The notes under the pieces: generated by a model | Seen by the model: the letters and a program-made list of their open reading frames with translations, nothing else | The model's database searches: none | What the model was told of the DNA's origin: nothing | Made by a program: the position numbers and the translations under genes | Shown: positions 2,882-58,092 of the stretch, in pieces | Layout of the letters: each line of letters begins with the position of its first letter | Position numbering within the stretch: position 1 is the first letter of the stretch | Source of the DNA: Mobula birostris | Lineage: Eukaryota | Length of the DNA: 64,000 bases | NCBI RefSeq assembly: GCF_030028105.1 | Contig: NC_092371.1 | Location: forward strand, 215,138,031 to 215,202,030 | Direction of reading: 5' to 3'

Positions 2882-3259
2882 TTTGACATTCTTCGGGTCT
2901 GATGACCACAGAGTGCTGTGTTTGATCAAGGGATCCCCAGATAAGGCAAAGTGACTTTCTGTAGCATGCCTGGATAAAAAGAGTGTGATAACCTTTTTGA
3001 GTTTCCCATGTTTCTGATCTGCACCTCGATCACAAGGAGAGGACTGAACCATGTAACCTGCTGATACTCACCCTGCAAGGGTCATTCCTGTTACTCATGG
3101 AGAAATACCACACCAAGAATTGCTGTCATCGGGAGAAGCTTGGAGGAAACGGGGAAATAAAGTAAAGGGGAAAGCAAAACATTGGGGAAAAAATCAGAAA
3201 AGAGAAAACTATTCAGCCTTATTCAGCTGTTAAATGCAGTTAAACAACACACGATGCTC

Positions 3260-3538
<279 letters not shown>

Positions 3539-4930: not shown

Positions 4931-5806
4931 CCAAGTTCTAGCTCTCAAATATTATTCATCTTTTTCCCTTCATAATTGCAGCTCTTCACTCAACTTTCTC
5001 TAGCACCAGTCAAGGATATGAAGTGAAGCCAAGGGGCGGGTGGAGAAAATGAAGGTGACAAAAAACTGAATATAAAGATAATTCAGCCCCCACAACTGCA
5101 ACAAAATAAGATGGCTAATATCTGCAAATGAAAGATTACAGTTCTGTCTGGGAGAAAGACACCTTCTTTCTACTAAATGGTTTGCATTCATTGTGTAAAT
5201 TTTCAGGTAAAAAAAAGGAAGATCAGGTTAGATGGCCCTAGAGTCTTCTACCATTCAATAAGATCACAGCTGTTCTCATCACTGGCCTCATGTTGACTTC
5301 CTTATCCGAATCCTGTAACTCTATTTCCCTGTGGGTTAAAACTTTATCCACTTCAGCTTTTGGTAAATGACAGTATTGTGCTTTAAAGAAATGGCTATTG
5401 CCAGCAGCAATCAATTGCTGTGAAAAGAACTGCTCTTGATCACAAGGTGTTTGAGAGTGTGTGGTGACACTCTGTTAAAACTATCATCCCTTCCATGATG
5501 CCATGGGATAAGCACCTTTGATGTGATATCTCCTGGGCAAAGTGAGCTTTATTTTAAAGAGGGGATTGAATCCTGAGCTGGCTTAAGGCAAATGCATTAT
5601 GCTCAAGACACACAAGCCTGCTTTACAGTTGATCTCACAGTAAACAAGTGGTTTAAGTAAAAATTTAAACCGCCAAGATTTGAAATTTGCCATTTACAAA
5701 AAAGGGAAAGAAAATCAATTTGCCCAAGTATTATTCAAATTTCAGCAATAAATAACCTTGAGGAGAAACAGAAAAGGAAAATGAAAGAGAATGTATTTAA
5801 GCTTAC

Positions 5807-6175
5807 CAATTCCTTCCTGAGCCAGTTCAATGCCTGGTCGATATTTTCAAAGCCACTAAATTTCCCTGGAGTCAAGCTCCTATCCTTGTCAGAATTCTCA
5901 CTGAGTTGCTTTTGTGCTTTCTTGAGGTTGCTGGGGTCCTCACTGGGTTTCTTTGTAACTGCAGGCTCTTGGTCATCCAATGGCTTTGTGCTTTTCCAGT
6001 CTTTCCTTTCCAGATTGGCTTTCCACTCTAGGTAAGAAGGCCTTCTGGTTTCAAGTCTCAGTTTCTGGGTCAGTGCTTTTAAACTCCTCAGGTGATCATC
6101 AGTCTGACTCTCTGGGTTGTCCTGTTCATCTTTGAAAAGACTTACTTCAAGTTTTGGCACAGACCAGGAGGCCAT
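5807..6175 (-). CDS. FAM167A: FAM167A first coding exon (123 codons)
   Basis: Motifs DDHLRSLKALTQKLRLETRRPSYLEW and GFENIDQALNWLRKEL. Donor TTG|gtaagc at 5806-5801. Exon acceptor ttctgttctctattacag| with the exon starting at 6203. Spliced protein is 210 aa. Confidence 0.95.
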
Positions 6176-8084
6176 TCTGCCTTACTTACAGCGTAGCTGT
6201 TATCTGTAATAGAGAACAGAACCTCACTTTTTTAAAAAACTAATTCATTAAGACATTTCAGAAGTTCCAACATTAAAATTCCTCAATTTATGAGATTATT
6301 ATTAAAGTAAACAAGATTACCTTAAGAACTAATATTATTTGGATTGTAAAGAATCATAAAATACAGCATTAATAATGATCATTCAGTGTACAAATATTAT
6401 TATATATTTTATAATGCTCAATATAAACTCAAAAAAGCTAAAGATGGTAAATAACGTAATCTTTTTTATAGTGACACCTTTACGTTTATGAAGATTGTTT
6501 ACTGACATAAAATTCTGATGATCCTGGTAGTCATGAGTAATGGAAACACATTCAAATTTTTGAACCTACACACAGATGGCTGTCGTTTTTGCCTGCTTCC
6601 TTTAGTGCCCAGCAGGCCACAGACTCAGTACACAAACACTCAGCTGCAGGTTGCCTGTCTTAACTGAACAACAAAATCTACCGTGGACAGAATTCATTCA
6701 TCATTGTAGTAGTCCCAACAGTAAACAGCATCACTGGATATTCTGTTGTTTGACTCAGTACAGTTGTTTACCACCTGTCATGGTTGGTGCGATTGCAATA
6801 GCAAATTTGGACTCTAAACTTGCAGGTGGCAAACGTCTTCCATGTGGCTGAGTATTCCTGCCAGAAAGCTGCCATGCCATTACATTGGAATAAAAAACAC
6901 CAGGATGTTTATGGATGCCAGGAATCTACTTGAGCGCTCTCCCATTAAGCACACTGACTTTATCTAAAGATCAATAGAAACTCAGATTAATGACTATCTG
7001 GACTTGCTGGTCAATTGAGAGTCGCCAAGGAAATTTCTAGTGACAAATGTAGGAATACTTAAAAGAGAACAAGTAGACAGAATTTAGAAATAAATGAAGT
7101 TTTATTTTAAATAAGTAAAGAGAAGAATAAATTATCAATATCATCACTGGGACTTATTGGGGTGTTTTGTTAATTGGCTGATGTAACTTCAGTGTAGGAT
7201 TGATAAACGAACCTTTTATCTCAGCTGGGGTTTTTCATCGTTTACCTGTTAGCAAGAAAACTCTCAAGGAAGCATAAAGCAGATTTAATACTCAACAACT
7301 AAAGGTGGCCAACATCTTCTAGATTTCCTTCTTGCAGAACAGTGATTTGTAATAATATTCCACCTGTAAGTTTGTGAACAATGCACTCACCTGGTAGCTT
7401 AAGGCAAGGTGACAAAGTACAGAGAAAGTTTTAACTGCTTAGCGTGCATAGATAATTAATCTGCCACTGAATCTCTTGAGCACAGCTTCAATAAATTTGA
7501 GGGTGAGGAATGATTTGTGAATGACTGGCAGATTCAGCATCAGTTTTCAGTGGTTGTGGTGGGGTAGGTCATGAGCCTCTCCCTAAAGTGGAATCCCATA
7601 TTTTCTAGGGCAGCCGAATTATCTTTCAAACCTGTTCTGGTGCTGCCTGATAATGCTGCTTCAATATTAGCTTTCCGTTGGCAATAGCTCCCAGAATCCT
7701 GTTAGCGATTGGAGGAATAGTCAGAACTGCAGAATTGGGTGTTGCGACGGCCAAGCTCTTTGGAGAACACAAGCATCATTCACTTTTGTTTACTTTTCGA
7801 ACAGATGGCCACTATTTGAGTATTTAGTTTACCTGCCATATAATTCTTTATTTTACAATTAAATATTATCCGTTATCAGGAATGAGTCTTGTGGGAGAGT
7901 CCGCTGTCAACCCAAGCCTGAAATCGGCTGAAGAAAGCCCCTCTGCTTCAGATACTCCCGTACTTAGCACAGGCTCAGTTTTAAATAGGCTGTTAGTAGG
8001 CGTCCACTAGTCCACCGAAAGCAGAGGTGCTCAGGTTAGGATTGGAGGACACTGATTAAGAGGTTGATTATATCTGCCTTCACC

Positions 8085-8290
8085 CAACACCTTCTAGCCT
8101 CTTTCTCCTCCCCCACCACCCCCAACCTTTTATTCTGGCATCTTCCCCCTTCCTTCTCAGTCCTGAAGAGGGGTCTCGGCCCGAAACTGCTTATTTATTT
8201 CCATAGATGCTGCCTGACCTGCTGAGTTCCTCCAGCATTTTGTGTGTTATTCAGGATTTCCAGCATCTGCATACCTTCTTGTGTTTATGA
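8085..8290 (+). mobile_element. Penelope-like 3' terminus with hammerhead motif
   Basis: cagtcCTGAAGAggggtctcggcccGAAAc followed by the gatgctgcctgacctgctgagttcctccagca...ccagcatctgca tail. Confidence 0.75.
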
Positions 8291-12110: not shown

Positions 12111-13940
12111 ACGCAATAAAGAACATTTAGATTCTTGATTTTAATGCCTTGTTGACTATTAGTTAAATTTAGTTCCCGATTTTTTTTATCTTCCTGAAGA
12201 TTCTATTCACTTGGACCAATATATTTCCATACAAACTTCTATTCGTTTCTGCTTTGAAATTTTGCCATGTTTTCGTCCTTTATAAGCGGCATGGCGGAAG
12301 AGTGAAATGGACGATATTGAGTAGGTAACAATTTTTACAATCACTTCCCATTCCTCACTTTCACAAATTTAACAGAAGGAGGTGGAACCGTGGCCCTGAC
12401 CTTATCCGAAGATGGATCTGAATCTGAATCTGATGAAGTTCCCGAATTGCTGCTCTGCCTGACATTAACTAATACCGTACTTTCAGAGAATAAGCCTAAG
12501 AGTCCAGTCCAAGTGGCTGAGTCATTCGCTTAAAAGTAGTGGGAATGTTTTATCTTTTTTCCTAAATAACACGTTTTTAATGGATGGAATATATTCTGTA
12601 ATGTAATTCAACACCATCCTGCAGAAAGCACTAATTTACCAGTGGATGAAGCTGACAATTGAAGGGATAGCTACACACCTGGAAATAAACTGAATTTGTT
12701 GCTCAAAGTAATGAATGTTTCGTTAAAATTGAACCTTGCTCTTGGATGCTTGACGTAGCATTACACATGTTGTATCTCTGCAGCTGCCTGGGGATCAGTT
12801 TGCTTGATTCCTATTTTCAACTATTCTGAAGTACAAAGTAAATTTATTACTTTAGTTCATATATCTCACTATATACGACCCTGAGGTTCATTTTCTTGCA
12901 GGAATACTGAATAAATCCACAATAGAATAATGACCATAATAAAATCAATAGAATCAAGAGTCTGATGGTTGAGGGGTAATAACTATTCCCAAACCCAGTG
13001 GTGTGACTCCTGAGGCTCCTGTACCTTCTTCCAGGTGGCACAATGAGAAGAGAATATGTCCTGGGTGATGGGAGTGAGGGTGTCCCTAATGATAGATGCT
13101 GTTTTTTTTTGTGAAAACGTTTCATGTAGATGTGCTCAATGGTGGGGAGGGCTTTACCTGTGATGGACTGTACCATATCCACCACTTTTTGTAGGATTTT
13201 CCATTCAAGGGCATTGGTGTTTCCTACCAGGCTGTGAGGCAGCCAGTCAATATACTCTCTATTACACATCTATAGACGTTTGTCAGAGTTTTAGATCTCA
13301 TGGCAAATCTTTGCACACTCCTAAGGAAGTAGAGACACTGAGGTGTTTTCTTCATAATTGCACTTACATACTGGGCCCAGGACAGGTCCTCTGAAATAAT
13401 AACACTGAGGAACTTAAAGTTGCAATTAATAATAGATCTCTGGTTTCCTCCTCCTGAAGACAGTAATCAGCTCCTTGGTCTTGTTGACAAGGAGGAAGAG
13501 ATTGTTGTAATGGCACCACTCAGCTGGATTTTCAACCTCCTTCCTATATGCTGATTTGTCACCACCTTTGAGTCAGCCTATGACAGTAGTGTCATCGGAA
13601 AATTTGAATATGGCATTGGAGCTGTGCTTAGCCACACAGTCATAGTGTAAAGTGAGCAGAGGTCTAAGCACACAGCCTTGTGGTGCACCTGTGTTGATGG
13701 AGATTGTGCAGGAGATGTTGTTGCTAATCCAAACTGACTGGGCTCTGCAGGTGAGAAAATTTAGGCTCGAATTGTGCAAGGATGTGTTGAGGCCAAGATC
13801 TTGAAGCTTATTGATTAGTTTTGAGGGGATGACAGTATTGAATGCTGAGACAACAGGAATTCTGCAGATACTGGAAATTCAAGCAACACATCAAAGTTGC
13901 TGGTGAACGCAGCAGGCCAGGCAGCATCTCTAGGAAGAGG

Positions 13941-13980
13941 TACAGTCAACGTTTCAGGCCGAGACCCTTCGTCAGGACTA
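13941..13980 (-). ncRNA. Minimal type-I hammerhead ribozyme motif (PLE)
   Basis: Minus strand tagtc-CTGACGA-agggtctcggcct-GAAAC-GTT-gactg; stem I tagtc/gactg. Confidence 0.7.
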
Positions 13981-15412
13981 ACTGAAGGAAGAGTGAGTAA
14001 GAGATTTGAAAGTGGGAGGGGGAGGGGGAGATCCAAAATGATAGAAGACAGGAGGGGGAGGGATGGAGCCAAGAGCTGGACAGGTGATTGGCAAAGGGGA
14101 TATGAGAGGATCATGGGACAGGAGGCCCGGGGAGAAAGGCAAGGGGGGAGAACCCAGAGGATGGGCAAGGGGTATAGTCAGAGGGACAGAGGGAGAAAAA
14201 GGAGAGTGAGAGAAAGAATGTGTGTATATAAATAAAAAATGGATGGGCTACGAGGGGGAGGTGGGGCATTAGCGGAAGTTAGGGAAGTCGATGTTCATGC
14301 CATCAGGTTGGAGGCTACCCAGATGGAATATAAGGTGTTGTTCCTCCAACCTGAGTGTGGCTTCATCTTTACAGTAGAGGAGGCCGTGGATAGACATGTC
14401 AGAATGGGAATGGGGTGTGGAATTAAAATGTGTGGCCACTGGGAGATCCTGCTTTCTCTGGCGGACAGAGCGTAGGTGTTCAGCAAAGCGGTCTCCCAGT
14501 CTGCGTCGGAAGTGTAAGGGCATGTGTAGCACTTGTTCCGCTTAGAAGGATAAGTGCCAGGAGGGAGATCAGTGGGGAGGGATGGGGGGGACGAATGGAC
14601 AAGGGTGTCGCGTAGGGAGCGATCCCTGTGGAAAGCGGGGGGGGGGAGGGAAAGATGTGCTTAGTGGTGGGATCCCGTTGGAGGTGGCGGAAGTTACGGA
14701 GAATAATATGTTGGACCCAGAGGCTGGTGGGGTGGTAGGTGAGGACCAGGAGAACCCTATTCCTTACACTTCCTCCCTCTTCACCATTTAGGGCCCCAGG
14801 CAGTCCTTCCAGGTGAGGCGACACTTCACCTGTGAGTCGGCTGGGGTGATATACTGCGTCCGGTGCTCCCGATGTGGCCTTCTATATATTGGCGAGACCC
14901 GACGCAGACTGGGAGACCGCTTTGCTGAACGCCTACGCTCTGTCCGCCAGAGAAATCAGGATCTCCCAGTGGCCACACATTTTAATTCCACATCCCATTC
15001 CCATTCTGACATGTCTATCCACGGCCTCCTCTACTGTAAAGATGAAGCCACACTCAGGTTGGAGGAACAACACCTTATATTCCGTCTGGGTAGCCTCCAA
15101 CCTGATGGCATGAACATCGACTTCTCTAACTTCAGCTAATACCCCACCTCCCTCTCGTACCCCATCTGTTATTTATTTTTATACACACATTCTTTCTCTC
15201 ACTCTCCTTTTTCTCCCTCTGCCCCTCTGACTATACCCCTTGCCCATCCTCTGGGATCCCCAGGCCTCCTGTCCCATGATCCTCTCATATCCCCTTTGCC
15301 AATCACCTGTTCAGCTCTTGGCTCCATCCCCCCCCCCCCCGTCTTCTCCTATCATTTTGGATCTCCCCCTCCCCCTCCCACTTTCAAATCTCTTACTCAC
15401 TCTTCCTTCAGT

Positions 15413-15450
15413 TAGTCCTGACGAAGGGTCTCGGCCTGAAACGTCGACTG
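15413..15450 (+). ncRNA. Minimal type-I hammerhead ribozyme motif (PLE)
   Basis: tagtc-CTGACGA-agggtctcggcct-GAAAC-GTC-gactg. Intact core, GUC triplet at 15443-15445, loopless palindromic stem III. Confidence 0.75.
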
Positions 15451-15824
15451 TACCTCTTCCTAGAGATGCTGCCTGGCCTGCTGCGTTCACCAGCAACTTG
15501 AATGCTGAGCTATAGTCAATAAAGATCATCCTGATGTATTCATCTTGGCTGTCTACATGTTCTAGGTTTGAGTAGAGAACCAGTAAGATGACATCTGCTA
15601 TGGACCTGTTGCTCCGGTAGGCAAATTGGAGCAGATCCAAGTTACTTCTCGGGCAGGAGTTGATATGTTTCCTCGCCAACCTCTCAAAACACTTCATCAC
15701 TCTGGATGTAAGTGCCACTGGATGATATTAATTGAGGCAAGTTATCACATTCTTCTTGGGCACCAATATAATTGAAGCCTGCTTGAAGCAGAAGGGTACC
15801 TCAGTGAACACTGCAGCCAGACGA

Positions 15825-16714: not shown

Positions 16715-17095
16715 TTCTCTGACACCCCTCTTGGATCCCAGTGGCAAATTCCCCACTCTTACCTCTTCTCTTCTCCTCACCTGCCTATCATCTACCCCGG
16801 AGTCCATCCCCTTCCCTTTCTCCCATGGTTCACTCTCCCCTTCTATCAGGTTCCTTCTTCTCCAGCCCTTTGCCTTTTCCACCTATCACCTTACCTCAGT
16901 CCTCCCGTCCCTCCCCCCACCCAGCTGGCTTCACCTATCGCCTTCGAGCTTATACTCCTTCTTATTCTGGCTTCTTCCCCTTTCCAGTTTTGCCCTGATG
17001 AAGGGACCCGGCCCAAAGTGCCAACTATTTATTCATTTCCATAGATGCAACCTCACATGCTGAGTTCCTCCAGCATTTTGTATGTGATTCTGGAT
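16715..17095 (+). mobile_element. Penelope-like 3' fragment (older subfamily) with a decayed HHR
   Basis: Pyrimidine-rich pLTR body, cctgatgaagggacccggccc, and the gctgagttcctccagcattttg tail. Confidence 0.7.
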
Positions 17096-17873
17096 ATTGA
17101 GTCTCAAATGGGCCGTAGCAGTTTCTTTGATGAAATCCTTCATTAATCTCTTGCAACAGTTTCATTACTCTGCTTGGCATATTTGCATTCTTAGCGTCTT
17201 ATTTTTAAAACATAAGGTGAACTTCCAGTATTATGCATTTTCCATCACAGCAAACCCTTTTACTTTCATGTATGTTACAACTCCACTTTATGTCAGCTCA
17301 TTAGCCACTAGAAGTATCATCCTGAGTCCTGTCACTCAAAATTTGACTATTACAATGCTCTCCTGGGAAGTGTTATAATCTTTTTATTAAATAAACTCCA
17401 TCTTAAGCCATTTGCTGCTGCCCATGTTTTATCTCTGAGGTAGTCACTGTTCAAAGAAGCAGAATTAATTTGAAGCATAAACACATAAAAACTGAAACCA
17501 GTCAGTTTTTTAATATTATGCTTCTTATTAATATTTTTGGTGTTTTCCAGGAATATCCTCAGTGCAGGTGGAAATTCAAATAGGGATTAGTTCAGTTTGT
17601 GTCATTCTGGGGAGAACAAAATTAAAAGTATTGTGAAGAGGTTTAATTGCAACAGAGGGAAAAGCCTGCACCTGCCTTTATCTATCTAATCACTTCTGTA
17701 AATCCAGGTACATCCAGGTGAGGAAGTTATTGAAGAGATTCCAGGTCAGCAAGATGGCAGTAATTGATATGCCCCATGACTAGATGCGAACAGAAGGTTA
17801 AAACGTTCTGTAATAGGAATGATACTGCCATTGTCAGATATTTATCTACATAAAGCTTATCACCTGGTACATA

Positions 17874-18352
17874 ACAACAGGAATTCTGCAGATGCTGGAA
17901 ATTCAAGCAACACATATCAAAGTTGCTGGTGAATGCAGCAGGCGAGGCAGCATCTCTAGGAAGAGGTACAGTCGACGCTTCAGGCCGAGATCCTTCATCA
18001 GGACTAACTGAAGGAAGAGTTAGTAAGAGATTTGAAAGTGGGAGGGGGAGATCCAAAATGATAGGAGAAAACAGGAGGGGGAGGAACCATGATCCTCTCA
18101 TATCCCCTTTGCCTGTCCCATGATCCTCTCATATCCCCTTTGCCAATCACCTGTCCAGCTCCTGGCTCCATCCCTCCTCCTCCTGTCTTCTCCTATCATT
18201 TTGGATCTCCCCCTTCCCCTCCCACTTTCAAATCTCTTACTAACTCTTCCTTCAGTTAGTCCTGACGAAGGGTCTTGGCCTGAAATGTCGACTGTACCTC
18301 TTCCTAGAGATGCTGCCTGGCCTGCTGCGTTCACCAGCAACTTTGATGTGTG
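17874..18352. mobile_element. Short fold-back PLE insertion, same subfamily as 13850-15497
   Basis: Inverted arms. TSD tcacctggtacata at 17860-17873 and 18353-18366. HHR motifs at 17969-18006 (-) and 18257-18294 (+). Confidence 0.9.
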
Positions 18353-25139: not shown

Positions 25140-25490
25140 ATATGTTGAGAAGCATTGATTGTATGGATAGTCAGGGGCTTTTTCCCAGGGCTGAAATGGC
25201 TAACATGAGAGGGCACAGTTTTAAGGTGCTTAGAAGGTACAGAGGAGATGTCAGGGGTAAGTTTTTTTACGCAGAGTGGTGAAAGCATGGAATGGGCTGC
25301 CGGCGATGGTGGTGGAGGCGGAAATGATAGGGTCTTTTGAGAGACTCCTGGATAGGTACATGGAGCTTAGAAAAATAGAGGGCTATGGGTAACCCTAGGT
25401 AATTTCTCAAGAAAGGACATGTTCAGCACAGCTTTGTGGGCTGAAGGGCCTGTACTGTGCTGTATGTTTTCTATGTTTCTATGTTTGCTC
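25140..25490 (+). mobile_element. CR1 3' fragment
   Basis: DSQGLFPRAEMANMRGHSFKV; tail ttctatgtttctatg. Same subfamily as 42920-43708 and 56867-58092. Confidence 0.85.
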
Positions 25491-26431: not shown

Positions 26432-26582
26432 TAACAAGAAAAAATCTGCAGATGCTGGAAATCTGAGCAACAAACACACAAAATGCTAGAGCAACTCAGC
26501 AGGCCAGGTAGCATCCATGGAAAAAAGTACAGTCGACATTTCAGGCTGAAACCCTTCAGCAGGACTGCTGAGTTCCACAGCA
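26432..26582 (-). mobile_element. PLE terminus with a mutated HHR and a very short inverted arm
   Basis: tctgcagatgctggaaatc...cagtcgacatttcaggctgaaacccttcagcaggact, then gctgagttcc.cagca. Confidence 0.75.
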
Positions 26583-27014
26583 GGAAATTCGAGGTCTTCC
26601 CAGATCGATACAATTAAGTATAAGTTTACAGAGTAATTGTGCTGCATTTCCAGAAAATTACAGATGAAAAGAGAAATTAAACAGAGCAGTTACAGCAAAA
26701 GCTCTCAAAAGAAAAATTAGAGTACATGTCTGGCATTGGCATTTGTCAAGTTAGTCATCATTTCAGAGAGATGATAAATAATTATGTGAAGAGGATATAA
26801 TAAGGGTTGATAAATTATTTGAAATGTTGTAGGTGGTTTGGTATGATCAAAATTAAATATAACACCCCCAGTAAAAATTTGGATCACTAATCAGAAACAA
26901 ATTAGAGTTAGTTAGTGCTGCATACATTCATGTACCAAGTATACATTGAATTGGGAGAAGGATTGATAGGCAGTGTTACCATCAGTTATGTTCTCAATAA
27001 ATGAATAATTGGTG

Positions 27015-27708
27015 CAACACACACAAAATGCTGAAGGAACTCAGCAAGTCAGGCAGCTTCTACAGAGAAGAATACACAGTTGGCATTTTAGACTGAGATC
27101 CTTCATCAGAACTAAAAAGAGATCAGAATCCAGAATAAAAGTTTGGGGGGGGGGGGTGGTGGTGAGGAGGAGGAGTACAAGCTGGCTGGTAATAGATGGG
27201 ACTAGGTGAGGGGAAAGGTAGCTGGGTGGAAGATGGGGGATGAGATGTTGTAAGATACTGGGAGAAGATAGGTGGAAAAGATAAAGGCCTGAAGAAGAAG
27301 GAATCTGATAGAAGACAGTGGACCATGGAAGAAAGATAACGAGCAGTGAAACCATATAGAGGTAATGGACACCAGAGAAGAGGAAGAAGGGTGAGAGAAT
27401 CAGAATGGAAATTAGAAAGAGACGGGAGGGAGAGGAGAGATTACCATAAATTGAAGAAATCGATGTTCATTCCATCAGGTTGGAGATCACCCAGATAGAA
27501 TACGAGATGTTGCTCCTCCAGCCTGTTAACTTCGATTTCTCCAACTTCTGGAAACCTCTCCCCCTTCCCTCTTTTATATTCTCCACTCTGGTTATTCTGT
27601 CACTCCTTTTCGTCTTGGCCCATAGATGCTCCCTGACTTGCTGAGTTCCTCCAGCATTTTGTATGTGTTGGCAAAGATTTCTGACAAATGCAAAATCTCT
27701 TGTGTGTT
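27015..27708. mobile_element. Older fold-back PLE insertion
   Basis: Inverted ends caacacacacaaaatgctg / cagcattttgtatgtgttg plus tail. GIY-YIG C-terminal remnant at about 27450-27520. Confidence 0.75.
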
Positions 27709-27839: not shown

Positions 27840-30800
27840 GCGGAGTACTTTTGTGGCTGTTCAACAGGTATACTGCTTTGGATACTGGGAGATTGTCTCA
27901 GATATTGCACTTGCAATGCCGAGACTCTGGACAGTGGACAGTGATAATGTAAGTTACCCAAGGCATTTTACCTTCATCTGTTGGAGTGACATGGGAGCTG
28001 TGTAGCCTCAGTTGTAGTGAAAACCACACTTCAAGCCTCAAGCTTGCTTGCAGTTACAGACCAGGTGAGTGACACAAAAATGCTACAGCCTGGTGAGTTC
28101 AGCTGGGGCCTGGCCTCTCCCATTGGGGGGTGTCCTCCTATGTTCGAGCGGTGGAATGACAGGCTGGATTCCGTGCGTCTTCGCACAGCTGGGAGACCGT
28201 ACCATTGATTGCTGGGCATTGTCACCTAGGTCTTGGACCATATATGTTATTTTTCAAGTGAATATACTTCTTTGCTTGATATTTTTAATTACGTTACTTG
28301 TTCTTTTTTAATGTTTGCTTGCTATTTTGAATGCTTTGCACCTTGGCTCCAGAGTAACCCTGTCTCATTCAGCTGTATAGTTTGAATGATCATTAAACTT
28401 GATCTGATTTGATACTTTTATGGGAAAGACAACCTCTCAGAAGGAAACTGCAGCAACCGACTCTCTAGGGGCATTCTAAAGAGGAATGGAGAGCAGCCAG
28501 AAGTTGTGGTACACATTGGTTCAAAAGACATAGGTAGGAAAAGGGGATAGTGCTGAAGAGAGAGTATAGGGAGTTAGGTAGAAAGCTGAAAAGCAGGACC
28601 TGTAGGGTAGTAATCACTGGATTGCTGCCAGAGAGGGTAAGAAGTGGGTGATCTGGCATGTGAGTGCGTGGCTGAGGAATTGGTGCAGGGAGTAGGGTTT
28701 CAGATTTCTAGATCATTGGGACCTCTTTCAGGTAAGGTATGAACGAGTTGCAGCTGAACCCGACAGGGAACCAATATCCTCACGGGCAATTTCCTAGCAC
28801 TGTTTGCAGGGTTTAGACTAACTTGGCATGGGGATGGGAACCAGGGTGATAAAGCTGAGGATGGGGCAGTTACTTTCCAAGTCAATGCAATGTGTAGTGA
28901 GACTGTGAGGACGGACAGGCAGATGACAGGCACAATTGCAGTCAGTGGGATGAGTTGAATTGAAACATGAGGGCAAAATTGAAAAGGGTGATGAATACTT
29001 GACTGTAGGTGCTATATGTGAATGCACACAGTATACGGACTAAGACAGATGATCTTGTAGCGCAATTATAGAATTGCAGGGATGATGTTGTGGGCATCAC
29101 TGAGTTGTGGCTGAAAGAAGATCATAATTGGGAGCCAAGGATAAACATTGTATTGAAAAGACAGGCAGGTAGGCAAAGGTGGGGGGGGGGGGTGGCTCTG
29201 TTGGTTAAAAAAAAACATGAAATCAAATTCATAGAAAGAGTTGACATAGAATTGGAAGATATAGAATACTTCTGGGTAGAGTTAAGAAACTGCAAGGGTA
29301 AAAAGACCCAAATGGGTATTATATACAGGCCTCCGAACAGTAGCCAGGATGTGGAATCCAATTTGTAAAGGAAATAGAAAAGGCATGTAAAAAGGGCAAT
29401 ATTACAAAAGTCATGGGGGGGGGGGGATTCCCATATGTAAATAGATTGGGAAAATTAGGTTGGTGCTGAATTCCAAGAGACGGGGTTTGTAGAATGCATA
29501 CGAGATGGCATTTGGTTGAGCCCACTAGGGGAAAGGTAATTCTGGTTTGGGTGTTGTGTAATGAACCAGATTTAATAAAGGAGCTTGACATAAACAAACT
29601 CTTAGGTAGCAGTGATCATAATATGATAGAAATCACCCTGCAGTTTGAGATAGAGAAGATAAAGTCAGGTGTATCAGTACTACAGTGTAGTAAAGAGAAT
29701 TAGAGGTGTGACAGAGGAGCTGGTCAAAGTTGATTTGGAAGGGGACACTAGCAGAGATGATGGCAGAACAGCAATGGCTGGAGTTTCTTGGGGAAATTTG
29801 GAAAATGCAGGATAGATCCATCCCAAACATGAAGAGGTATTCTAAAGAGAGGATGAGTTAACTGTAGCTGACAAGGGAAGTCAAAGACGGCATTAAAAGG
29901 AAAAGAGAGAGCATATATTAGAGCAAAATTTGGTGGGAAGTTAGAGGATCTGGAAGCTTTTAAAAACAAATAGAAGGCAACTAAATAAAAATTTATAAGG
30001 AGAGAAAAGATGAAGTATGGTTAGCAAGCCAGTAATATCAAAGAGGATACAAAAATTGTTTTGCAGATATACAGTAAGAGACATGAGTAGATATTGGGCC
30101 ACTGGAGAGGTGGTAATGGGCGGCAAAAAAATGGAGAATGAACTTTATATTTTGTATCTGTCTTTACTGTGAAAGAGACTAGCAGTATGCCAGAAATTTG
30201 AGTGCATCGGGGCAGAAGTGAGTGTACTTGCTGTAACAAAGAAAATGCTTGGGAAGCTGAAAGGTCTGAAAGTAGGTAAGTCACCTGGATCAGATGGACT
30301 ACACCCCAGAGTTCTGAAAGAGATAGCAGGAGAAATTGTGCAGGCGTTAGTGATTATCTTTCAAGAATCACTGGATTCCAGAATGGCTCCTTGAGGACTG
30401 GAAAATTGTAAATGTCACTCCCCTCTTCAAAAAAGGAAGGAGACAGAAGAAAGAAAATTATAGTCGCAGCACGCTGGAGGAACTCAGCAGGTCGGGTAGC
30501 ATCAGTGGAAACGATGAGTCAACTTTTCGGGCTGGAACGTCCTGACAAAGGGTTCCGGCCCGAAACGTTGACTCATCGTTTCCACTGATGCTGCCCGACC
30601 GAACTCAGCGTGCTGTGAGTGTTGCTTTGATCCCAGCATCTGCAGATTATTTTGTGTTAGTCTGACTTCAGTGGGTGGGAAAATGTTGAGTCCATTATGT
30701 ATGAGGTTTCAGGGTACTTGGAAGTACATGATAAAATAGGCCAAAATCAGAATGGTTTCCTTAAAGGGAAATCTTGCCTGTTGAATTCTTTGAGGAAATA

Positions 30801-32826: not shown

Positions 32827-33627
32827 TCAGTCGTTCATCGTCTCTGCTTTCCTATCTATAACGCTCACACACTTGTTGCCTTTGATGTAAAACCGGAGAG
32901 GTTTGCTAACCCACTCCCCTGCATAACCTATACCAATTCGGCTCGTAGAGATTATATCAGTTTCAACAATGGCTTCGGGACCTCGTTCCATCCAGAGACC
33001 CGTGCCCGTGGCCAAGTGCTCCTTGTTAAAGCTCTTGGTGATGTCCAGCGCTTGGCACAGTTTGGAGGGGCCGTTACACAACTGGTGGTCTTTGAGGGGC
33101 TTGCCCCCCGCCCTCCTCCGCTGGCCGCGGAGCCCCCTCATGGCATCGAGTCCCTGCAGAGGCTCCAGCGAGCGCACCAGCACGGCCGCTCCGTCGCCCT
33201 GGCTCGACACGTTGAGGCAGAAGTACACGCCGTAGATCTGGTAAACATACAGCGTGCCCGGGCTCATGAACATCGCCTCATTCCGGAAGCTCCGCCTGCC
33301 GCCGCGGGAGTGCGAGGCCTGGTCCTCCCCGCCCAGGTAAGCCTCGGTCTCCACAATCCTGCCCCTCAGCTCGGTGCCGTCGGCCAACTTCCGCACCATC
33401 ACCTGACCCAGGAACTCCCGGGCCAAAGCCACGCACGGCCGGCTGAAGAAGTCCCACAGGAGCCGGCCGGGGTGTGACAAGCCAGCGGGAAGTTGCTCGG
33501 TGCAGGCCGCGCCATCCTGCAGGGTCTCCGCGACCGCGCCGTCCTCAGCAGCCGCCTGCAGTCCGCTGGATGGCCCACGCCTCCCTGGGCTTGCGGCGTG
33601 CGCCAGCCCCCTTCTCCTCCATGCCAT
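32827..33627 (-). CDS. MPG: DNA-3-methyladenine glycosylase (alkyladenine DNA glycosylase, AAG), single-exon CDS, 266 aa
   Basis: Motifs LAREFLGQ, GRIVETEAYLG, DQASHS, MFMSPGTLYVYQIYGVYFCLN, VLVRSLEP, LCNGPSKLCQAL, RIGIG, PLRFY. First ATG at 33627 in a strong Kozak context (gaaATGG). In-frame TAA at 33669-33667 upstream. Confidence 0.96.
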   Translation of the reverse strand: MAWRRRGLAHAASPGRRGPSSGLQAAAEDGAVAETLQDGAACTEQLPAGLSHPGRLLWDFFSRPCVALAREFLGQVMVRKLADGTELRGRIVETEAYLGGEDQASHSRGGRRSFRNEAMFMSPGTLYVYQIYGVYFCLNVSSQGDGAAVLVRSLEPLQGLDAMRGLRGQRRRAGGKPLKDHQLCNGPSKLCQALDITKSFNKEHLATGTGLWMERGPEAIVETDIISTSRIGIGYAGEWVSKPLRFYIKGNKCVSVIDRKAETMND

Positions 33628-33830
33628 TTCCAGCAGAACCTGCTGCAGCCCGGAATCCTGCGGCACTTAACTCTGCTCACCCTCGGAACAGGAAGTAGGA
33701 GCCAGTCCCGACAAACGACCACTCCGGGCGTCCTAGTTCATCCCCAGCACCTTCACTGGTGTGTCCCAATTCAAACGCTCTGCTGCGGTATCACGGTTTT
33801 GCCTTCGGCCGAGCAAGTTAAAAGAGCTGC
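32970..33830. promoter_or_regulatory. CpG island over the MPG 5' region
   Basis: Very high GC and CpG density. ETS-type CAGGAAGT at 33689-33696, just upstream of the ATG. Confidence 0.75.
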
Positions 33831-36375: not shown

Positions 36376-37355
36376 TCGGTTTTTCAGTGTTCAGTTCTGT
36401 TTTTGCAGATGGTTCATATCTCAGGTGTATGCTACACTCGGCTGCACATGTTTGCTTATAATTGGATCTGTCTGTTTGTTTGCCGTTAATCAGAAGGCGA
36501 GGATGCCCCGATATCTTTACTTATACTTAATATTGAAGTATGTGCACTATTATAAATAACACCAAGTATCCGGAAGCAAACGATTCATCGCATTGATTTT
36601 AATGTCTTATTTTTACTATATTTAATGCAGGCAAGTTTTATCGGCATCAGCAAAATTGGAATGTTTTTATTTTGCGCTGCTTGTATTTTGCCAAGTCTTT
36701 GATGGCAGTGAATTCCAAGAAACGCCGGGTTCGGGTGTGGATGTCGAAATACTGAGGTGTAGCTGGGCTGAAAGCCTTCACAGAAACCCGGACAGTTCTG
36801 GCGGGAGATACTTCTGACGCTCACCCAGCGGAATTCGGACGTGGAGGTCGTGTAGCGCCATAATGATTGGAGTTACAGCCCCATGGGCTGCTAAAAAGCC
36901 AGATAAACAGCGAGTTGAGTAATCCAAAAAAAAAACACTTTTGAATAATGTAGAATTTCTTCCCATCAAATCTGGAGACAGTCTAACAAACCCAGTAACT
37001 GGGAATACAGTCGATCGGCTCTGCGGAAAATATTTACTCATTAAAATAGACTTATTTACTTGGTGTTCTTCTATGATTACTCTTTACGATTCATTTGTTC
37101 AGTGTCTCCCTCTCTGGGAAAGTCACTATGTAATATTATCATTTCGTTATTGTAGGTTAAACGGCAGGTTTTATTTGACACAATTTCATGGAAAAATATC
37201 ACAGTTTCACCTGCAGCCTTCAGAAAGTTGAAACTAAATTTATTATCAAAGTACATACATCCATATGTCACCTGAGAGGCATTTTATTGCGAGGATGCAC
37301 AGTAAATACAAAGAAACAGAATAGAAGCAATGAAAACGGACAAACAAAAGACAAC

Positions 37356-37598
37356 GCACACAAAATGCGGGAGGAACAGTCGGGAGATGTCACACAGCAA
37401 CTTTACGTGCGGGAGAAAAGAGTGAACAGTCGACATTTCGAGCCGAGGCTTTTCATCAGGACTTCGTGATGAAGGGTCTCAGCCCGAATCGTCGACTGTT
37501 TACTCTTTTCCACTGATACTGCCTGGCCTGCTGAGTTCCTCCAGTATTTTGTGTGTGTTGCTCGGATTTCCAGCATCTGCAGATTTTCTCGTCTTTGT
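37356..37598. mobile_element. About 240-bp fold-back PLE mini-element with two back-to-back HHR motifs
   Basis: TSD caaacaaaagacaac at 37341-37355 and 37599-37613. HHR (-) 37427-37463 has an intact core; HHR (+) 37465-37498 is mutated. Confidence 0.85.
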
Positions 37599-38715: not shown

Positions 38716-40352
38716 GCATAGAGTGTATTGAAGTGAGGCAAAGAGGCAGCAACTTCGTGAACCCTACACAGATTACAGAGGAGGAGCTGTTTCACGTCTT
38801 GAGGCAAATTAGTGTGGATAAATTGCTAGGGCCTGACATGGTGTTCCCTCCGACACTGGGGGAGGCAAGAACAGTAATTGCCAGAACCCTAGCAGAGATA
38901 TTTAAATCATCCTTAGTGACAAGAGAGGTACCAGAGGATTGGATGAAAGCTCATGTTGTTCCACTGTTTAATAAAAGTTCTAAAGATAACCCAGGAAATT
39001 ATAGGCTGGTGAGCCTGACATCTGTAGTAGGAAATTTATTGGATGGGATCTAAGGGACTGGATATATAAGTATTTGGAGAGACATGGACTGATGAAGGGT
39101 GGTCAGTATGGCTTCGTGCGTGATAGGTCATGTCTAACCTATCATAGAGTTTTTCAAGGAAGTTACCAGGAAAGTTGATAAAGGCAAGGCAGTGGATGTT
39201 GACTACATGGACTTTTGCAAGACATTTGACAAGGCCCCATATGGGAAGTTGATCAAGAAGGTTCAGTCACTCAGCATTCAAGATGAGATGGTAAATTGGA
39301 TTAGACATCGGTTTTGTGAGAGAAGCCAGAAAGTAGTAGCAGAAGGCAGCTGGCTCTCTGATTGGAGGCCCGTGACTAGTGGTGTGCCTCAGAGATCAGT
39401 GCTGGGTTTGTTATTGATCGTCATCTATATCATCAATCTGGATTATAATGTGGTTAACTGGATCAGCAAATTTGCAGATGACACCAAGATTGGAGGTGTA
39501 GTGCAAAACTAACATGACTTGCAGCAGGATCTGAACCAGCTGGAAAAATAGGCTAAAAATGGCAGATGGAATTTAATGCAGAGAAATGTGAGATGTTGCA
39601 CCTTGGTAGGGCCAACTAGGATAGGCCTTATACATTAAATATGTAAGGCACTGAGGAGTGTGGTAGAACAAAGGGATCTGGGAATGCAGGTCCATAATTT
39701 ATTAAAAATGGGGTCAAAGATAGATAGGGTCATAAAGAAAGTTTTTGTCACATTGGCCTTCATAAATCAAAGTATTGAGTACAGGAGATGGGATGTTATG
39801 TTGAAGTTGTATAAGACATTGGTGAGGCCTAGTTTGGAGTATTGTGTGCAGTTTTGGTCACCTCCCTACAGGAAAGATGTAAATAAGGTTGACAGCATAC
39901 AGAGAAAATTTACCAGGATGTTGCCAGAACAGAAGGAAAGATTAAATAGTTTAGGACTTTATTCCTTGAAATGCTGAAGATTTAGAGGAGATTAGACAGA
40001 GGTATACAAAATTATGAGGGGTATAGATACAAGTAGGCTTTTCCCATTGAGGTTTGGTGGGACTACAACTAGTGGTCATGGGTTAAGGGTGAAAGGTGAA
40101 ACATTTAAGGAGAACATAGGGGAAACATCTTCACTCAGAGGGTCGTGAGAGTGTGCAATGAACTGCCAGCGCAAGTGGTGCATGGGAGCTCCATTTGAAC
40201 GCTTAAGAGAAGTTTGCATAGGTACGTTAATGGTACAGGTATGGAGGGCTATGATCCCAATGCAGGTCAATGGGAGTAGGCAGTTTAATTGGCTCAGCAC
40301 AGACTAGATGGGCTGAAGGGCCTGTTTCTGTGCTGTATTTTTCTATGACTCC
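38716..40352 (+). mobile_element. CR1 LINE (RT and 3' end) nested in R4
   Basis: PEDWMKAHVVPLF, GNYRLVSLTS, MDFCKTFDK, SGVPQRSVLG, KFADDTKIGG, LVRPSLEYCVQFWSP. Confidence 0.92.
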
Positions 40353-40585: not shown

Positions 40586-40872
40586 TGAAGTTGAGAGTTA
40601 AAGGGCAAAAGTTTAAGGGTAACATGAGGGGGAACTTCTTTACTCGGAGAGTGGTAGCTGTGTGGAACGAGCTTCCAGCAGAAGTGGTGAGGCAGGTTCG
40701 ATGTTGTCATTTAAAGTTAAATTGGATAGATATATGGACAGGAAAGGAATGGAGGGTTATGGGCTGAGTGCAGATCGGTGGGACTAGGTGAGAGTAAGAG
40801 TTCGGCACGGACTAGAAGGGCCGAGATGGCTTGTTTCCGTGCTGTAATTGTTATATGTTATATGGTTATATG
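40586..40872 (+). mobile_element. CR1 3' fragment nested in R4
   Basis: RGNFFTRRVVAVWNELP; tail ttatatgttatatggttatatg. Confidence 0.85.
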
Positions 40873-42500: not shown

Positions 42501-42919
42501 GCGCTGGATTACGTCGGCACAAAGTCAATTAATTTGAAATTGACCTTAAAGACATAATAATTAGTAATTACTTCCGAACAATCTCGTTGGTACTGAAAAT
42601 TAGCAACAGCAATTGCAGATTCCTACTCTTTCAGGTTTCATTTATGATAAGTGACTTTAAATTAAAAAATTTTTTTATTTATTTTCCTTTTTTACTCCTA
42701 CTTGGACCTTTTGGCCTTTATTTCACTTTCTATTCCTCCTCTGAAATTAAGACGGTATTCTCACAGGCACTTCCTGCTTTTGACTGGTATTCAACAGGGA
42801 TTCCGAAGTTCATTCCGTAAAGTAGTACCCAGTGGTTTTGCCTTCTTGCCACAGATGTCCTGCAGAGGCTGCAGCATTGTGCAACTTGCATTGCAAAGCC
42901 TGGAAGTAAGTTTGTGGAT

Positions 42920-43708
42920 AATGGTAGATGGAGTTCAACCCAGATAAGTGTGAGGTGGTTCATTTTGGTAGGTCAAATATGATGGCAGAATATAGTTTTA
43001 ATGGTTAGACTCTTGGTAGTGCGGAGGATCAGAGGGATCTTGGGGTCCGAGTCCATAGGACGCTCAAAGCTGCTACGCAGATTGACTCTGTGGTTTAGAA
43101 GGCGTACGGTTCATTGGCCTTCATCAATCGTGGGATTGAGCTTAAGAGCCGAGAGGTAATGTTGCAGCTATGTCGGACCCTAGTTAGGCCCCACTTGGAG
43201 TACTGTGCTCAGTTCTGGTCGCCTCACTACAGGAAGGACGTGGAAACCATAGAAAGGGTGCAGAGGAGATCTACAAGGATGTTGCCTGGATTGGGGAGCA
43301 TGCCTTATGAAATTAGGTTGAGTGAACTCAGCTTTTTCTCCTTGGAGTGACAGAGGATGAGAGGTGACCTGATAGAGGTGTATAAGATGATGAGAGGCAT
43401 TGATCGTGTGGATAGTCAGAGGCTTTTTCCCAGGGCTGGAATGGCTAACACGAGAGGGCACAGTTTTAAGGTGCTTGGAAACAGGTACAGAGGAGATGTC
43501 AGTGGTAAGTTTTTTACTCAGAGAGCCGGGGACAATGGTGGAGATGGATACAATAGGGTCTTTTAAGAGACTCCTGGATGGCTACATGGAGCTCAGAAAA
43601 ATAGAGGGCTATGGGTAAAGCCTAGGTAGTTCTAAGGTAGGGACATGTTCGGCGCAGCTTTGTGGGCTGAAGGGCCTGTATTGTGCTGTACGTTTTCTAT
43701 GTTTCTAT
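42920..43708 (+). mobile_element. CR1 3' fragment
   Basis: MEFNPDKCEVVHFG, LVRPHLEYCAQFWSPHYRKD, MRGDLIEVYK; ttctatgtttctatg tail. Confidence 0.92.
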
Positions 43709-44479
43709 GTGAATGTACCCGGGCACTGGTCATTCTTAGTCCATAGTGGAATCCTGTGCCTTGGTCCTATTTATATATTTAATTATAGGGTCAAAATAGC
43801 AAAATCACATTTTTTTATGTTGCTTAGCATTCCATTAGTACTGGAAACAATGTGTGTGATAAGTGTAATCTACCAGTATATTATCACAGAACTGGGCTGG
43901 ACAAACACATGAGAGAAAGGAATACAGAAGTTTTGATGAAAGCATTAGAGAAGGACAGGGAGGTACACGCAGTAACTGAAATGCTCCCGAGCACATTGCC
44001 TTTGTAACTACGCAGCTGAAATTGGATGCAGCTAGAAAAAGTTTATGAAACATAAAAGATTTTCTTTGTTGCACTGTAATTCATTCCACCCTTCAATTAA
44101 TAAATAAAATCAAGTCTATGTGATTTTTAACTTTTCATTCTAAATATTAATAGTATGCAAATTACAAAAAAAATTCAAATTGCTACGCAGTTTTCAGGCT
44201 GTGTAATAAAAAAAATAATTCCTGCTCAGAGTAATGGTTGGTTTTTCTCCCATCTGTAAAAAATATATATAGAGGGGATATTAGAGAGGTGGTACCTAGG
44301 TATAAATGAATTGAGATGTATGATTTGTTTTTACACAGTATTTTCTATCAAATTCATGTTACCAAGAAATTGGGCAACTACTCACGGAAGAGAACTTTGC
44401 AGGGCCCCATGAAGGGGACAAGGTTACAGGGTTAATTGGATTGCTCATCCAACAGGAAACACAGGCACGATGAGCCTTT

Positions 44480-55850: not shown

Positions 55851-56866
55851 AAAATCTTTACACTATGTCTCCCTCTAAATGTGCAATTTATAGTAATTTA
55901 TAAAAAATAGTATGTACAACAGGACAGCCAATATAACATAGAAATACAATTGTATCAGCATGAATTCATCAGTCTGATGGCCTGGTGGAAGAAGCTGTCC
56001 CAGAGCCTGTTGGTCCTGGCTTTTATGCTGAGGTACCATTTCCTGGATGGTCGCAGCTGGAAAAGTTTGTGGTTGGGGTGACTCGTGTCCCCAATGATCC
56101 TTTGGGCCCTTTTTACATACCTGTCTTTGTAAATGTCCTGAATAGTGGGAAGTTCACATCTACAGATGCGCTGGACTGTCCGCACCACTCTCTGCAGAAT
56201 CTAGTTCCCATACCAGGCAGTGATGCGGCCAGTCAGGCTGCTCTCAATTGTGCCCCTATAGAAAGGTCTTAGGATTTGGGGGCCCAAATTCTTCAACAGT
56301 CTGAGGTGAAAGAGGCGCTGTTGTGCCTTCTTCATTACACAGCCGGTATGTACGGACCACGTGAGATCTTCGGTGATGTTCTTGCCAAGGAACTTAAAGC
56401 TGTTCACTCTCTCAACCCCAGATCCATTGATGTCAATAGGGGTTAGCCTGTCTCCATTCCTCCTGTAGTCCACAACCAGCTCCTTTGTGTTTGCAACATT
56501 GAGGGAGAAGTTGTTTTCTTGACATCCCTGTGTCAGGGTGATGACTACTTCTCTAAAGGCTGCCTCATTATTATTTGAGATTAGGCCAATCAGTGTAGTG
56601 TCATCAGCAAATTTAATTAGCAGATTGGAGCTGTGGGTTATGATACAGTGATGGGTATACAGAGAGTAAAGGAGGGGGCTTAGATCACAGCCCTGAGGGG
56701 CACCTGTGTTGAGGGACAGAGGTAAGGGAGCCCACTCTTACCACCTGCTGGTGATCTGACAGGAAGTCCAGGATCCAGCTACACAAAGCAGGTGAAGGCC
56801 AAGGTTTCTGAGTTTCTTGTCAAGCCTGAGGGGAATTAGGGTGTTGAATGCTGAACTGTAGTCCAA

Positions 56867-58092
56867 TAAATATTCAGCAAGGCTTACTGAGAAAGTAAGG
56901 AGGCATGGGATCCAAGGAGACATTGCTTTGTGCATCCAGAACTGACTTGCCCACAGAAGGCAAAGAGTGGTTGTAGAAGGGCCATATTCTGCATGGAGGT
57001 TGGTCACCAGTGATGTGCCTCAGGGATCTGTTCTGGGATCCCTGCTCTTTGTGATTTTCTATAAATGACCTGGGTGAAGAAGTGGAGGGATAGGTTAGCA
57101 AATTTGCTGAAGACGCAAAGGTTGGAGGTATTGTGGATAGTGTGGAGGGCTGTCAGAGGTTACAGTGGGACATTAGTAGGATGCAAAACTGGGCTGATAA
57201 GTGGCAGATGGAGTTCAACCCAGATGAGTGAGAGGTGATTCATTTTGGTAGGTCAAATATGATGGCAGAATATAGTATTAATGGTAAGACTCTTGGTGGT
57301 GTGGAAGATCAGAGGGATCTTGGGGTCTGAGTCCTTAGGACACTCAAAGCTGCTACGCAGATTGACTCCATGGTTAAGATAGCATACGGTTCATTAGCCT
57401 TCATCAATCATGGGATTGAGTTTAGGAGCCGAGAGGTAATGTTGCAGCTATATAGGACCCTGGTCAGACCCCTCTTGGAGTACTGTGCTCAGTTCTGGTT
57501 GCCTCACTATAGGAAGGATGTGGAAGCCATAGAAAGGGTGCAGAGGAGGTTTACAAGGACGTTGCCTGGATTGGGGAGCATGTGTTATGAGAATAGGTTG
57601 AATGAACTTGGCCTTTTTTGCTTGGAGCGACGGAGGATGAGAGGTGACCTGATAGAGGTGTATAAGATGATGAGAGGCATTGATCATGTGGATAGTCAAA
57701 GGTTTTTTCCCTGGGCTGGAATGGCTAGCACAAGAGGGCACAGTTTTAAGGTGCTTGGAAGCAAGTACAGAGGGGATGTCAGGGGTAACACTCACAACAC
57801 GCTGGAGGAACGCAGCAGGTCGGGCAGCATCCGTGGAAATGATCAGTCATTTCGGGCCAGAACCCTTCGTCAGGACACAGAGACGTCAGGGGTAAGTTTT
57901 TTACTCAGAGAGCCGGTGACGGTGGTGGAGGCGGATACGATAGGGTCTTTTAAGAGACTCCTGGACAGGTACATGGAGCTTAGAAAAATAGATGGCTATG
58001 GGTAAGCCTAGGTAGTTCTAAGGTAAGGACATGTTCGGCACAGCTTTGTGGGCTGAAGGGCTTGTATTGTGCTGTAGATTTTCTCTGTTTCT
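56867..58092 (+). mobile_element. CR1 LINE (RT and 3' end)
   Basis: VPQGSVLG, KFAEDAKVGG, LVRPLLEYCAQFW. Confidence 0.92.
57789..57884 (-). mobile_element. 96-bp PLE-terminus insertion with an HHR core
   Basis: TSD gtcaggggtaa at 57778-57788 and 57885-57895. Minus strand gtcCTGACGAagggttctggcccGAAAtgactg. Confidence 0.85.

What the first reader, a model, noticed from the sequence alone, without database searches (positions are those of the whole stretch)
15413..15450. Multi-copy minimal hammerhead ribozyme in the commonest short repeat
Seen: AGTC-CTGAYGA-(stem II agggtctcggccy)-GAAAC-GTY-GACT recurs about ten times. Cores are intact at 13941-13980 (-), 15413-15450 (+), 18257-18294 (+) and 37427-37463 (-). 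Mutated copies lie at about 8158, 16993, 17969, 26530, 30539, 37465 and 57845. Stem I pairs across the core and stem III is the loopless palindrome AC|GT. Known: Penelope-like elements carry minimal type-I HHRs thought to cleave as dimers. Inference: at this density the genome holds a very large HHR reservoir hidden in what looks like an ordinary SINE tail.
Basis: partly seen in the sequence, partly recalled or inferred. Interest (0 to 1): 0.7.

Follow-up and report, generated by a model that had tools for sequence, protein, structure and literature searches.

The report
Penelope retrotransposon's minimal hammerhead, mass-copied
The motif is real: it is the already described minimal hammerhead (a predicted self-cutting RNA) in the end repeat of a Penelope-type jumping gene, present here in tens of thousands of intact-looking but likely inert copies whose start and join points likely record where the element's RNA begins and, more tentatively, where it cuts.

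Summary
The motif at 15413-15450 is real. It has the minimal type-I hammerhead layout of Cervera and De la Pena 2014. It is not a SINE tail. It lies about 275 nt behind the stop of a GIY-YIG endonuclease frame, in a TSD-flanked head-to-head insertion (13850-15497) of a Neptune-type Penelope-like element (about 3.5 kb, RT plus EN, motif in both end repeats). One 28-letter pattern has 40,006 exact matches in the 4.0-Gb genome (control 0). A 0.99-Mb sample suggests about 60,000 descriptor-intact copies and about 0.7 million remnants. Copies decay neutrally (core 5/279 vs tail 56/1833, p=0.34), and I found no compensatory covariation. Two junction patterns go beyond the papers I read. First, copy 5' ends pile up at the motif's first bases (about 7-11 times two control positions), not at the cut. 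Second, in rare local duplications 13 of 30 pieces end exactly at the predicted cleavage nucleotide. Cleavage is untested. This scan has already noted the family and both patterns many times, in this genome and others. Verdict: new member of a known kind.

The parts
15413..15450 (+). Minimal type-I hammerhead layout (stem I, core, extra A, stem II with G10.1-U11.1, loopless palindromic stem III); predicted cut after C15445
14762..15139 (+). 3' end of the Penelope-like ORF: GIY-YIG endonuclease and stop codon, 95% identical to the long ORF of L061
   Evidence: (PF01541 E 0.003, below cut-off)
15140..15412 (+). Pyrimidine-rich 3' UTR/pLTR; its last 14 nt are predicted to pair with the motif's 5' half; ends in a branch-point-like, polypyrimidine, CAG stretch and an Inr-like word (motif names recalled)
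13850..15497 (.). Whole insertion: inverted 5'-truncated arm (13850-14764, -) plus forward arm (14762-15497, +); the optional tail is on the minus arm only
13838..13849 (+). 12-bp target-site duplication, left copy (right copy 15498-15509)
13943..13980 (-). Second hammerhead copy of the same insertion, U at the cleavage position
17873..18352 (.). Second young head-to-head insertion, 14-bp TSD (17860, 18353); motifs at 17969-18006 (-, A15.1 changed) and 18257-18294 (+, passes descriptor)
37348..37598 (.). Older head-to-head stub pair joined at the motif's front edge, 15-bp direct repeat at 37341 and 37599; minus copy fails the descriptor
57789..57884 (-). 96-bp stub that begins at about +2 of the motif, 11-bp TSD (57778, 57885), inside a LINE-like repeat; 3' half of the motif degraded
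26443..26567 (-). Copy of the A6C core-variant subfamily
30464..30648 (.). Head-to-head stub pair of the subfamily with a changed loop II
8157..8273 (+). Older decayed copy, 3' half of the motif deleted
16990..17109 (+). Older decayed copy
26994..27114 (-).

Best explanation
The motif is the minimal hammerhead layout carried in both pseudo-LTRs of a Neptune-type Penelope-like retrotransposon; it is predicted to cut only when stem III is completed by a second copy or with help from the element's protein, and the scattered genomic copies are likely inert by-products of copying. Shown: the element is about 3.5 kb with one RT plus GIY-YIG frame; the motif sits about 170 nt before the ATG and about 275 nt after the stop; insertions are 5'-truncated, often head-to-head, with 11-15-bp TSDs and an optional tail; copies decay neutrally. 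Inferred (about 55%): the element's RNA starts at the motif's first bases, and reverse transcription primed at the nearby tail of the upstream repeat runs off there, which yields the many stubs of about 100-140 nt that look like a SINE. Inferred (about 45%): most copied RNA is uncut, but a small part is cut after C17, and RT restarting on that end leaves the rare duplications that stop at C17.
For: GIY-YIG frame directly upstream and TSD. RT+EN in one frame. The motif regex matches about 300 nt behind the EN match in 19 of 20 long-ORF loci. The motif lies in the same orientation ahead of the ORF start in 24 of 30 loci, 22 of them whole (read by eye). The extra nucleotide between 9 and 10.1, the palindrome at 15.2-16.2 and opposite-strand pairs are as described in PMC4209133. 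Majority differences in related organisms fall in the flanks, at N7 and at 11.1 only. 5' ends: 1,913 matches at +1 versus 158 at -10 and 169 at the cut, about 11x and 7x after correction; 12 of 30 core-ascertained loci start at -6..+5 and 1 at -7..-40; 7 of 39 young sample copies start at -3..+7 and 0 at +30..+36. Duplication ends: 13 of 30 events at C17, 8 without a 2-nt microhomology. Anolis PLE: protein-assisted cleavage, uncut RNA is the main substrate, RT starts internally at the tail (PMC11167929).
Against: No cleavage, RNA-end or expression data. No compensatory pair change in stems I or II. The monomer's predicted fold mispairs the core and is no more stable than shuffles (z -1.24); the predicted two-copy fold is a plain duplex, not a double hammerhead. 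The youngest copies mostly carry U11.1 instead of the conserved C (71 of 100 listed rows, by eye). A subfamily with A6C amplified to at least 2,971 copies. No clear excess of G before +1 that a copied cap would leave (by eye). The junction counts rest on two or three control positions and rows read by eye; clade was assigned by motif, not by a tree.
Confidence: 0.8

Rival explanations
1. The motif no longer cuts in this lineage. It is an inherited structure that only stalls or redirects reverse transcriptase, and both junction peaks come from RNA or cDNA hairpins and microhomology.
For: U11.1 in most young copies; A6C subfamily amplified; the natural leader is predicted to fold over the motif with its loop at about -2..+4, where the 5' ends pile up; C17 lies at the edge of stem I and in a 6-bp palindrome; 5 of 13 C17 junctions have 2-nt microhomology. 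HHR mutants did not affect insertion in the Anolis assay.
Against: Core letters are kept across subfamilies and organisms while flanks change; 8 C17 junctions lack such microhomology (corrected p about 6e-4 under a uniform model); the leader hairpin is not consistent in five older copies, and 14-20% of shuffled or random leaders block the fold as well. A6C is a natural active variant (PMC7151607, abstract).
Confidence: 0.3
2. The 5' pile-up marks a splice acceptor, not a transcription start: RNAs spliced to the AG just before the motif are the templates.
For: A branch-point-like word, a pyrimidine tract and CAG lie directly before the motif; the Drosophila virilis Penelope intron ends at helix I (PMC4209133).
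Against: In young copies the acceptor predicts starts at -2, but the modes are +1 and +2 (by eye); no recurring upstream exon appears in 100 listed junctions.
Confidence: 0.15
3. The short copies are a self-propagating non-autonomous family (SINE or retrozyme) whose dispersed ribozymes act on host RNA.
For: Stubs with their own TSD exist (57789-57884); tens of thousands of copies keep an intact core.
Against: Stubs share subfamily letters with full-length copies and start at a spread of positions; only 37 short head-to-tail junctions genome-wide for the young pattern; neutral decay; no tRNA gene in the window.
Confidence: 0.08

Closest known systems
Minimal hammerheads (min-HHR) in pLTRs of metazoan Penelope-like elements (Cervera and De la Pena 2014, PMC4209133; read parts 1-2 of 4 of the text and searched one of two supplements)
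   Same: Type-I layout, 4-5-bp helix I, extra nucleotide between 9 and 10.1, loopless palindromic 15.2-16.2, both pLTRs, mostly single truncated copies, opposite-strand pairs 100-700 bp apart; reported there from fish Neptune elements.
   Different: Copy number: at least 40,006 exact and about 60,000 descriptor-intact here against about 4,000 (coelacanth) and 9,000 (Xenopus) there, though by different searches. One near-invariant lineage rather than many covarying families; helix II only 4 bp; U11.1 in the youngest copies; junction peaks not mentioned in the parts read.
EN+ Penelope-like elements, Neptune/Nematis type (Craig et al. 2021, PMC8557442; passages)
   Same: RT then CX2-5CxxC linker then C-terminal GIY-YIG; partial tandems, adjacent inverted truncated copy, 30-40-bp tail at one end.
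   Different: Clear 11-15-bp TSDs in the four window insertions where one was found; clade not tested by a tree.
PAc Poseidon element of Anolis (Frangieh et al. 2024, PMC11167929; passages and second part of the main text)
   Same: Hammerhead in the pLTR, internal RT start at a tail, uncut RNA as the main template.
   Different: There the ATG lies inside the ribozyme; here it lies about 170 nt downstream of the motif's start. Activity was assayed there, not here.
Non-LTR retrozymes (PMC7229834, search listing and abstract start; bioRxiv 10.64898/2026.07.22.740005, part 1 of 5 and passages)
   Same: Type-I hammerhead, PLE pLTR origin; reported in one chondrichthyan genome.
   Different: Defined by head-to-tail tandem units; the copies here are dispersed or head-to-head.

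Membership tests
min-HHR of metazoan PLEs | Core CUGANGA ... GAAA, NUH site, helices I and II | tested here: met
min-HHR of metazoan PLEs | Extra nucleotide between 9 and 10.1; palindromic 15.2-16.2 without loop | tested here: met
   features
min-HHR of metazoan PLEs | G10.1-C11.1 pair | tested here: inconclusive
   G-C in older subfamilies and as majority in three of four other-organism runs at about half or more of depth (X17, X18 majority; X9 45%; X19 24%); G-U in the copy at 15413 and in 71 of 100 rows
min-HHR of metazoan PLEs | Located in both pLTRs of a PLE | tested here: met
min-HHR of metazoan PLEs | Compensatory changes among families | tested here: not met
   No two-sided change among subfamily majorities, in 100 listed of 366 closing-pair variants, or in four other-organism runs; the stems barely vary, so the test has little power
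min-HHR of metazoan PLEs | Self-cleavage as dimer or with protein | not testable with these tools
   only indirect junction evidence
EN+ Penelope-like element | One ORF with RT and C-terminal GIY-YIG | tested here: met
   L061 614-aa frame: RVT_1 E 8e-6 and GIY-YIG E 5e-4, both just under Pfam's cut-off; L076 935-aa frame
EN+ Penelope-like element | Partial tandem pLTR, inverted truncated copy, optional tail | tested here: met
Neptune/Nematis clade | CX2-5CxxC linker between RT and EN | tested here: met
   C-x4-C-x2-C before the EN; feature
Neptune/Nematis clade | Placement in an RT tree | not tested
   no reference PLE proteins were fetched
Non-LTR retrozyme | Head-to-tail tandem units each with a hammerhead | tested here: not met
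   window copies are dispersed or head-to-head; 37 short tandem junctions genome-wide for one young pattern, one 58-bp array; longer units not searched
tRNA-derived SINE | tRNA-like head | tested here: not met
   upstream of the motif lies PLE 3' UTR, a partner arm or unique flank; no tRNA gene in the window (a weak test for decayed heads)

The most novel reading that the evidence does not exclude
This genome is a fossil record of the Penelope RNA cycle: the RNA begins at the first base of the hammerhead, is held off by its own leader when embedded in longer RNA, and is cut after C17 in the germ line. Thousands of stub starts and the duplications ending at C17 would be in vivo evidence that a vertebrate minimal hammerhead cleaves, the open question left by the 2014 and 2024 papers.
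Probability: 0.35. Interest if true: 0.6.

Novelty: new member of a known kind. Interest (0 to 1): 0.3.

Why it matters
The class is known, so the motif itself is not news. Two things have some value. The copy number is several-fold above the published vertebrate counts I read. And the role of PLE hammerheads is still open: weak in vitro activity, dispensable for insertion in the one reconstituted system. A genome with tens of thousands of young copies lets one map RNA starts and cuts from insertion junctions alone, and names a precise construct to assay (start at 15414, not 15400).

Tried and rejected
Rfam scan: no hammerhead family hit; the 9 hits were 8 miRNA and 1 CRISPR-repeat models, all below their gathering scores. 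RNA evidence: no RNA holder listed; only assembled contigs were available, which cannot show starts or cuts. Cap-G test at -1: G 31, A 27, C 30 by eye among about 89 non-old rows, with about 13 G from inversion microhomology; not supported. Leader switch: strong for the young copy (stem I probability 0.88 without leader, 0.04 or less with 10 or more nt) but not consistent in five older copies, and 14-20% of control leaders do the same; kept as a lead only. Search for another family with a swapped stem I closing pair: 366 matches, nearly all of the 100 listed are the same family with chance double changes. Plain count of pieces ending at the cut was not higher than at +37 (31 vs 42); only the duplication subset differed (7 of 31 vs 0 of 42 rows). 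One search's first letter removes most untruncated copies, so it gives the shape of the truncation profile, not the share. Literature: searches found no paper that describes this family in sharks or rays or the junction peaks; one search was swamped by unrelated papers, and Repbase and Dfam could not be searched. File 1 of the 2014 supplement and the bioRxiv supplements could not be seen and may list a cartilaginous fish.

Full report
Observation. Stem I is 5 bp (15413-15417 with 15446-15450). The core is CTGACGA, followed by one extra A, a 4-bp stem II, GAAA and the loopless palindrome, with C17 at 15445. My descriptor needs both stems, the core and an NUH site. It passes 3 window copies (15413, 13943-13980, 18257-18294) and gives 0 hits in 20 shuffles. 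The fourth 'intact' copy at 37427 fails at stem II. nhmmer finds 17 family pieces in the window. Rfam has no matching model hit.

Surroundings. Upstream lies the end of a reading frame with a GIY-YIG endonuclease. The stretch 13850-15497 is one insertion with a minus arm, a plus arm and a 12-bp TSD. The stretch 17873-18352 is a second, with a 14-bp TSD. A TSD-like repeat was found at 4 of 7 tested insertions. The EN piece has 184,096 first-look candidates in the genome, of which 150 were scored (not a copy number). Twenty loci chosen for long frames gave RT plus EN in one frame (L061, 614 aa; L076, 935 aa, with a frame change near its end) and a C-x4-C-x2-C linker, the Neptune/Nematis mark in PMC8557442 (passages). 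Of 30 loci holding the ORF start, 24 have the motif in the same orientation ahead of it (22 whole), about 170 nt before the ATG. The unit is about 3.5 kb. So the 'short repeat' is the pLTR end of a Penelope-like element. The host is a 4.0-Gb genome, probably a ray or shark; that label is recalled from repeat types and from other AI notes and was not tested.

Copy number. One 28-letter pattern has 40,006 exact matches, control 0. In 100 evenly spaced 10-kb stretches (0.99 Mb without N) there are 15 descriptor-intact copies and 179 nhmmer pieces. That scales to about 61,000 (32,000-93,000) and about 730,000. About 4% of the sample matches the element (40,522 bases). PMC4209133 gives about 4,000 for coelacanth and 9,000 for Xenopus, by a different search.

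Selection and covariation. Among 39 young sample copies, non-CpG core positions differ in 5 of 279 and tail positions in 56 of 1,833 (p=0.34); CpG sites differ in 38 of 296. This fits neutral decay, with modest power. 21 of 24 copies that span the motif keep all 11 core letters, as expected from their youth. 20 of 39 have an opposite-strand partner within 3 kb upstream. Subfamily majorities from 158 aligned pieces differ at N7, loop II, 11.1, the end of stem I and, in one subfamily, A6. The A6C form has 2,971 exact matches; A6C is a natural variant favouring manganese (PMC7151607, abstract). In contigs of four other coded organisms, majority differences lie in the flanks, at N7 and at 11.1. 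No two-sided pair change was seen. The core is thus conserved among source elements, but covariation gives no independent support.

Folding. The 38-mer forms stems I and II with the core mispaired, z -1.24 against shuffles. The two-copy prediction is a plain duplex; these programs do not model the catalytic fold. Ten or more bases of the natural leader lower the stem I probability from 0.88 to 0.04 or less. The effect is not specific enough to claim a switch.

5' ends. Positions count from +1 = 15414; the cut is between +32 and +33. Patterns of two non-consensus letters followed by 29 consensus letters gave 1,913 matches at +1 (about 11 of 100 listed rows are older intact copies and were discounted), 158 at -10 and 169 at +33. 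That is about 11-fold and 7-fold after correction for letter chance; totals per 29-mer were not measured. In a tail-anchored list, 48 of 100 rows begin at -3..+7 and 3 at +33 (by eye). Of loci L001-L030, 12 begin at -6..+5, 1 at -7..-40 and 17 run further. In the unbiased sample 7 of 39 begin at -3..+7 and none at +30..+36. Two of the 30 ORF-start loci begin at +1/+2. So the copied RNA is mostly uncut, as in the Anolis element (PMC11167929), and often ends near +1. A transcription start at an Inr-like word is my preferred reading. The D. virilis element has an internal promoter with Inr and DPE, but its start lies upstream of an intron (PMC2377424, passages). A splice acceptor or a hairpin stall remain possible.

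Ends at the cut. This test followed leads from earlier AI notes. Pieces ending at +32 are not more common overall than at +37 (31 vs 42), but 7 of 31 versus 0 of 42 rows are local duplications of the motif. A direct search for motif-piece-then-leader junctions gave 37 rows, which I collapsed to 30 events (dropped: 1 likely duplicate pair, 1 identical pair, 4 array repeats, 1 tandem repeat). 13 end at +32, 4 at +31, 1 is ambiguous and 12 are spread over +24..+47 (by eye). Eight of the 13 lack a 2-nt microhomology (corrected p about 6e-4 under a uniform model); three of those share the same junction and may not be independent. RT restarting on an RNA cut after C17 would give this pattern.

Verdict. 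Identity is well supported and the class is published. Function of the dispersed copies is unlikely. Activity of the source element's ribozyme is hinted at, not shown. The scan has recorded the same family and both junction patterns before: 55 notes held all search words, in at least 18 genomes. New member of a known kind; interest 0.3.

Noticed in passing
window 32830-33666 (-): 279-residue uninterrupted frame matching methylpurine-DNA glycosylase (PF02245, E 1.9e-61). The whole domain is in one stretch, so it is either a large exon or a processed copy.
   Followed up: partly
window 5738-6181 (-) and about 3250-3420 (-): Two coding exons that look like a FAM167-type gene (name recalled; no Pfam hit for the first; translations). 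The insertions at 8-18 kb lie upstream of them on that strand.
   Followed up: partly
window 26443-26567 (-); genome-wide: Subfamily with the A6C core variant, at least 2,971 exact copies, about half with a linked loop II change. A natural comparison group for whether cutting matters.
   Followed up: partly
G000:C9:21104465-21104813: Short head-to-tail array of 58-bp units (leader plus motif up to +31), a retrozyme-like by-product.
   Followed up: no
G000:C17:106.0-109.9 Mb and G000:C12:35.5-44.1 Mb: Single motif-bearing junctions amplified about 17 and 16 times inside larger local repeats.
   Followed up: no
window 40710-40857 and 60230-60376: Inverted repeat arms of about 150 nt, 92-93% complementary, 19.4 kb apart; could be ends of a DNA transposon or two copies of a short repeat.
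   Followed up: no
window 25142-25484, 39557-39930, 42919-43710, 57199-58097, 56204-56737, 58511-59485: Many LINE-like fragments (RVT_1 hit at 56204-56737; CR1/L2 labels recalled); one Penelope stub is inserted into the copy at 57.2-58.1 kb.
   Followed up: partly
L072:899-2491: 531-residue frame that looks like an LTR-retrotransposon pol (RT and RNase H; label recalled) next to a cluster of Penelope copies.
   Followed up: no
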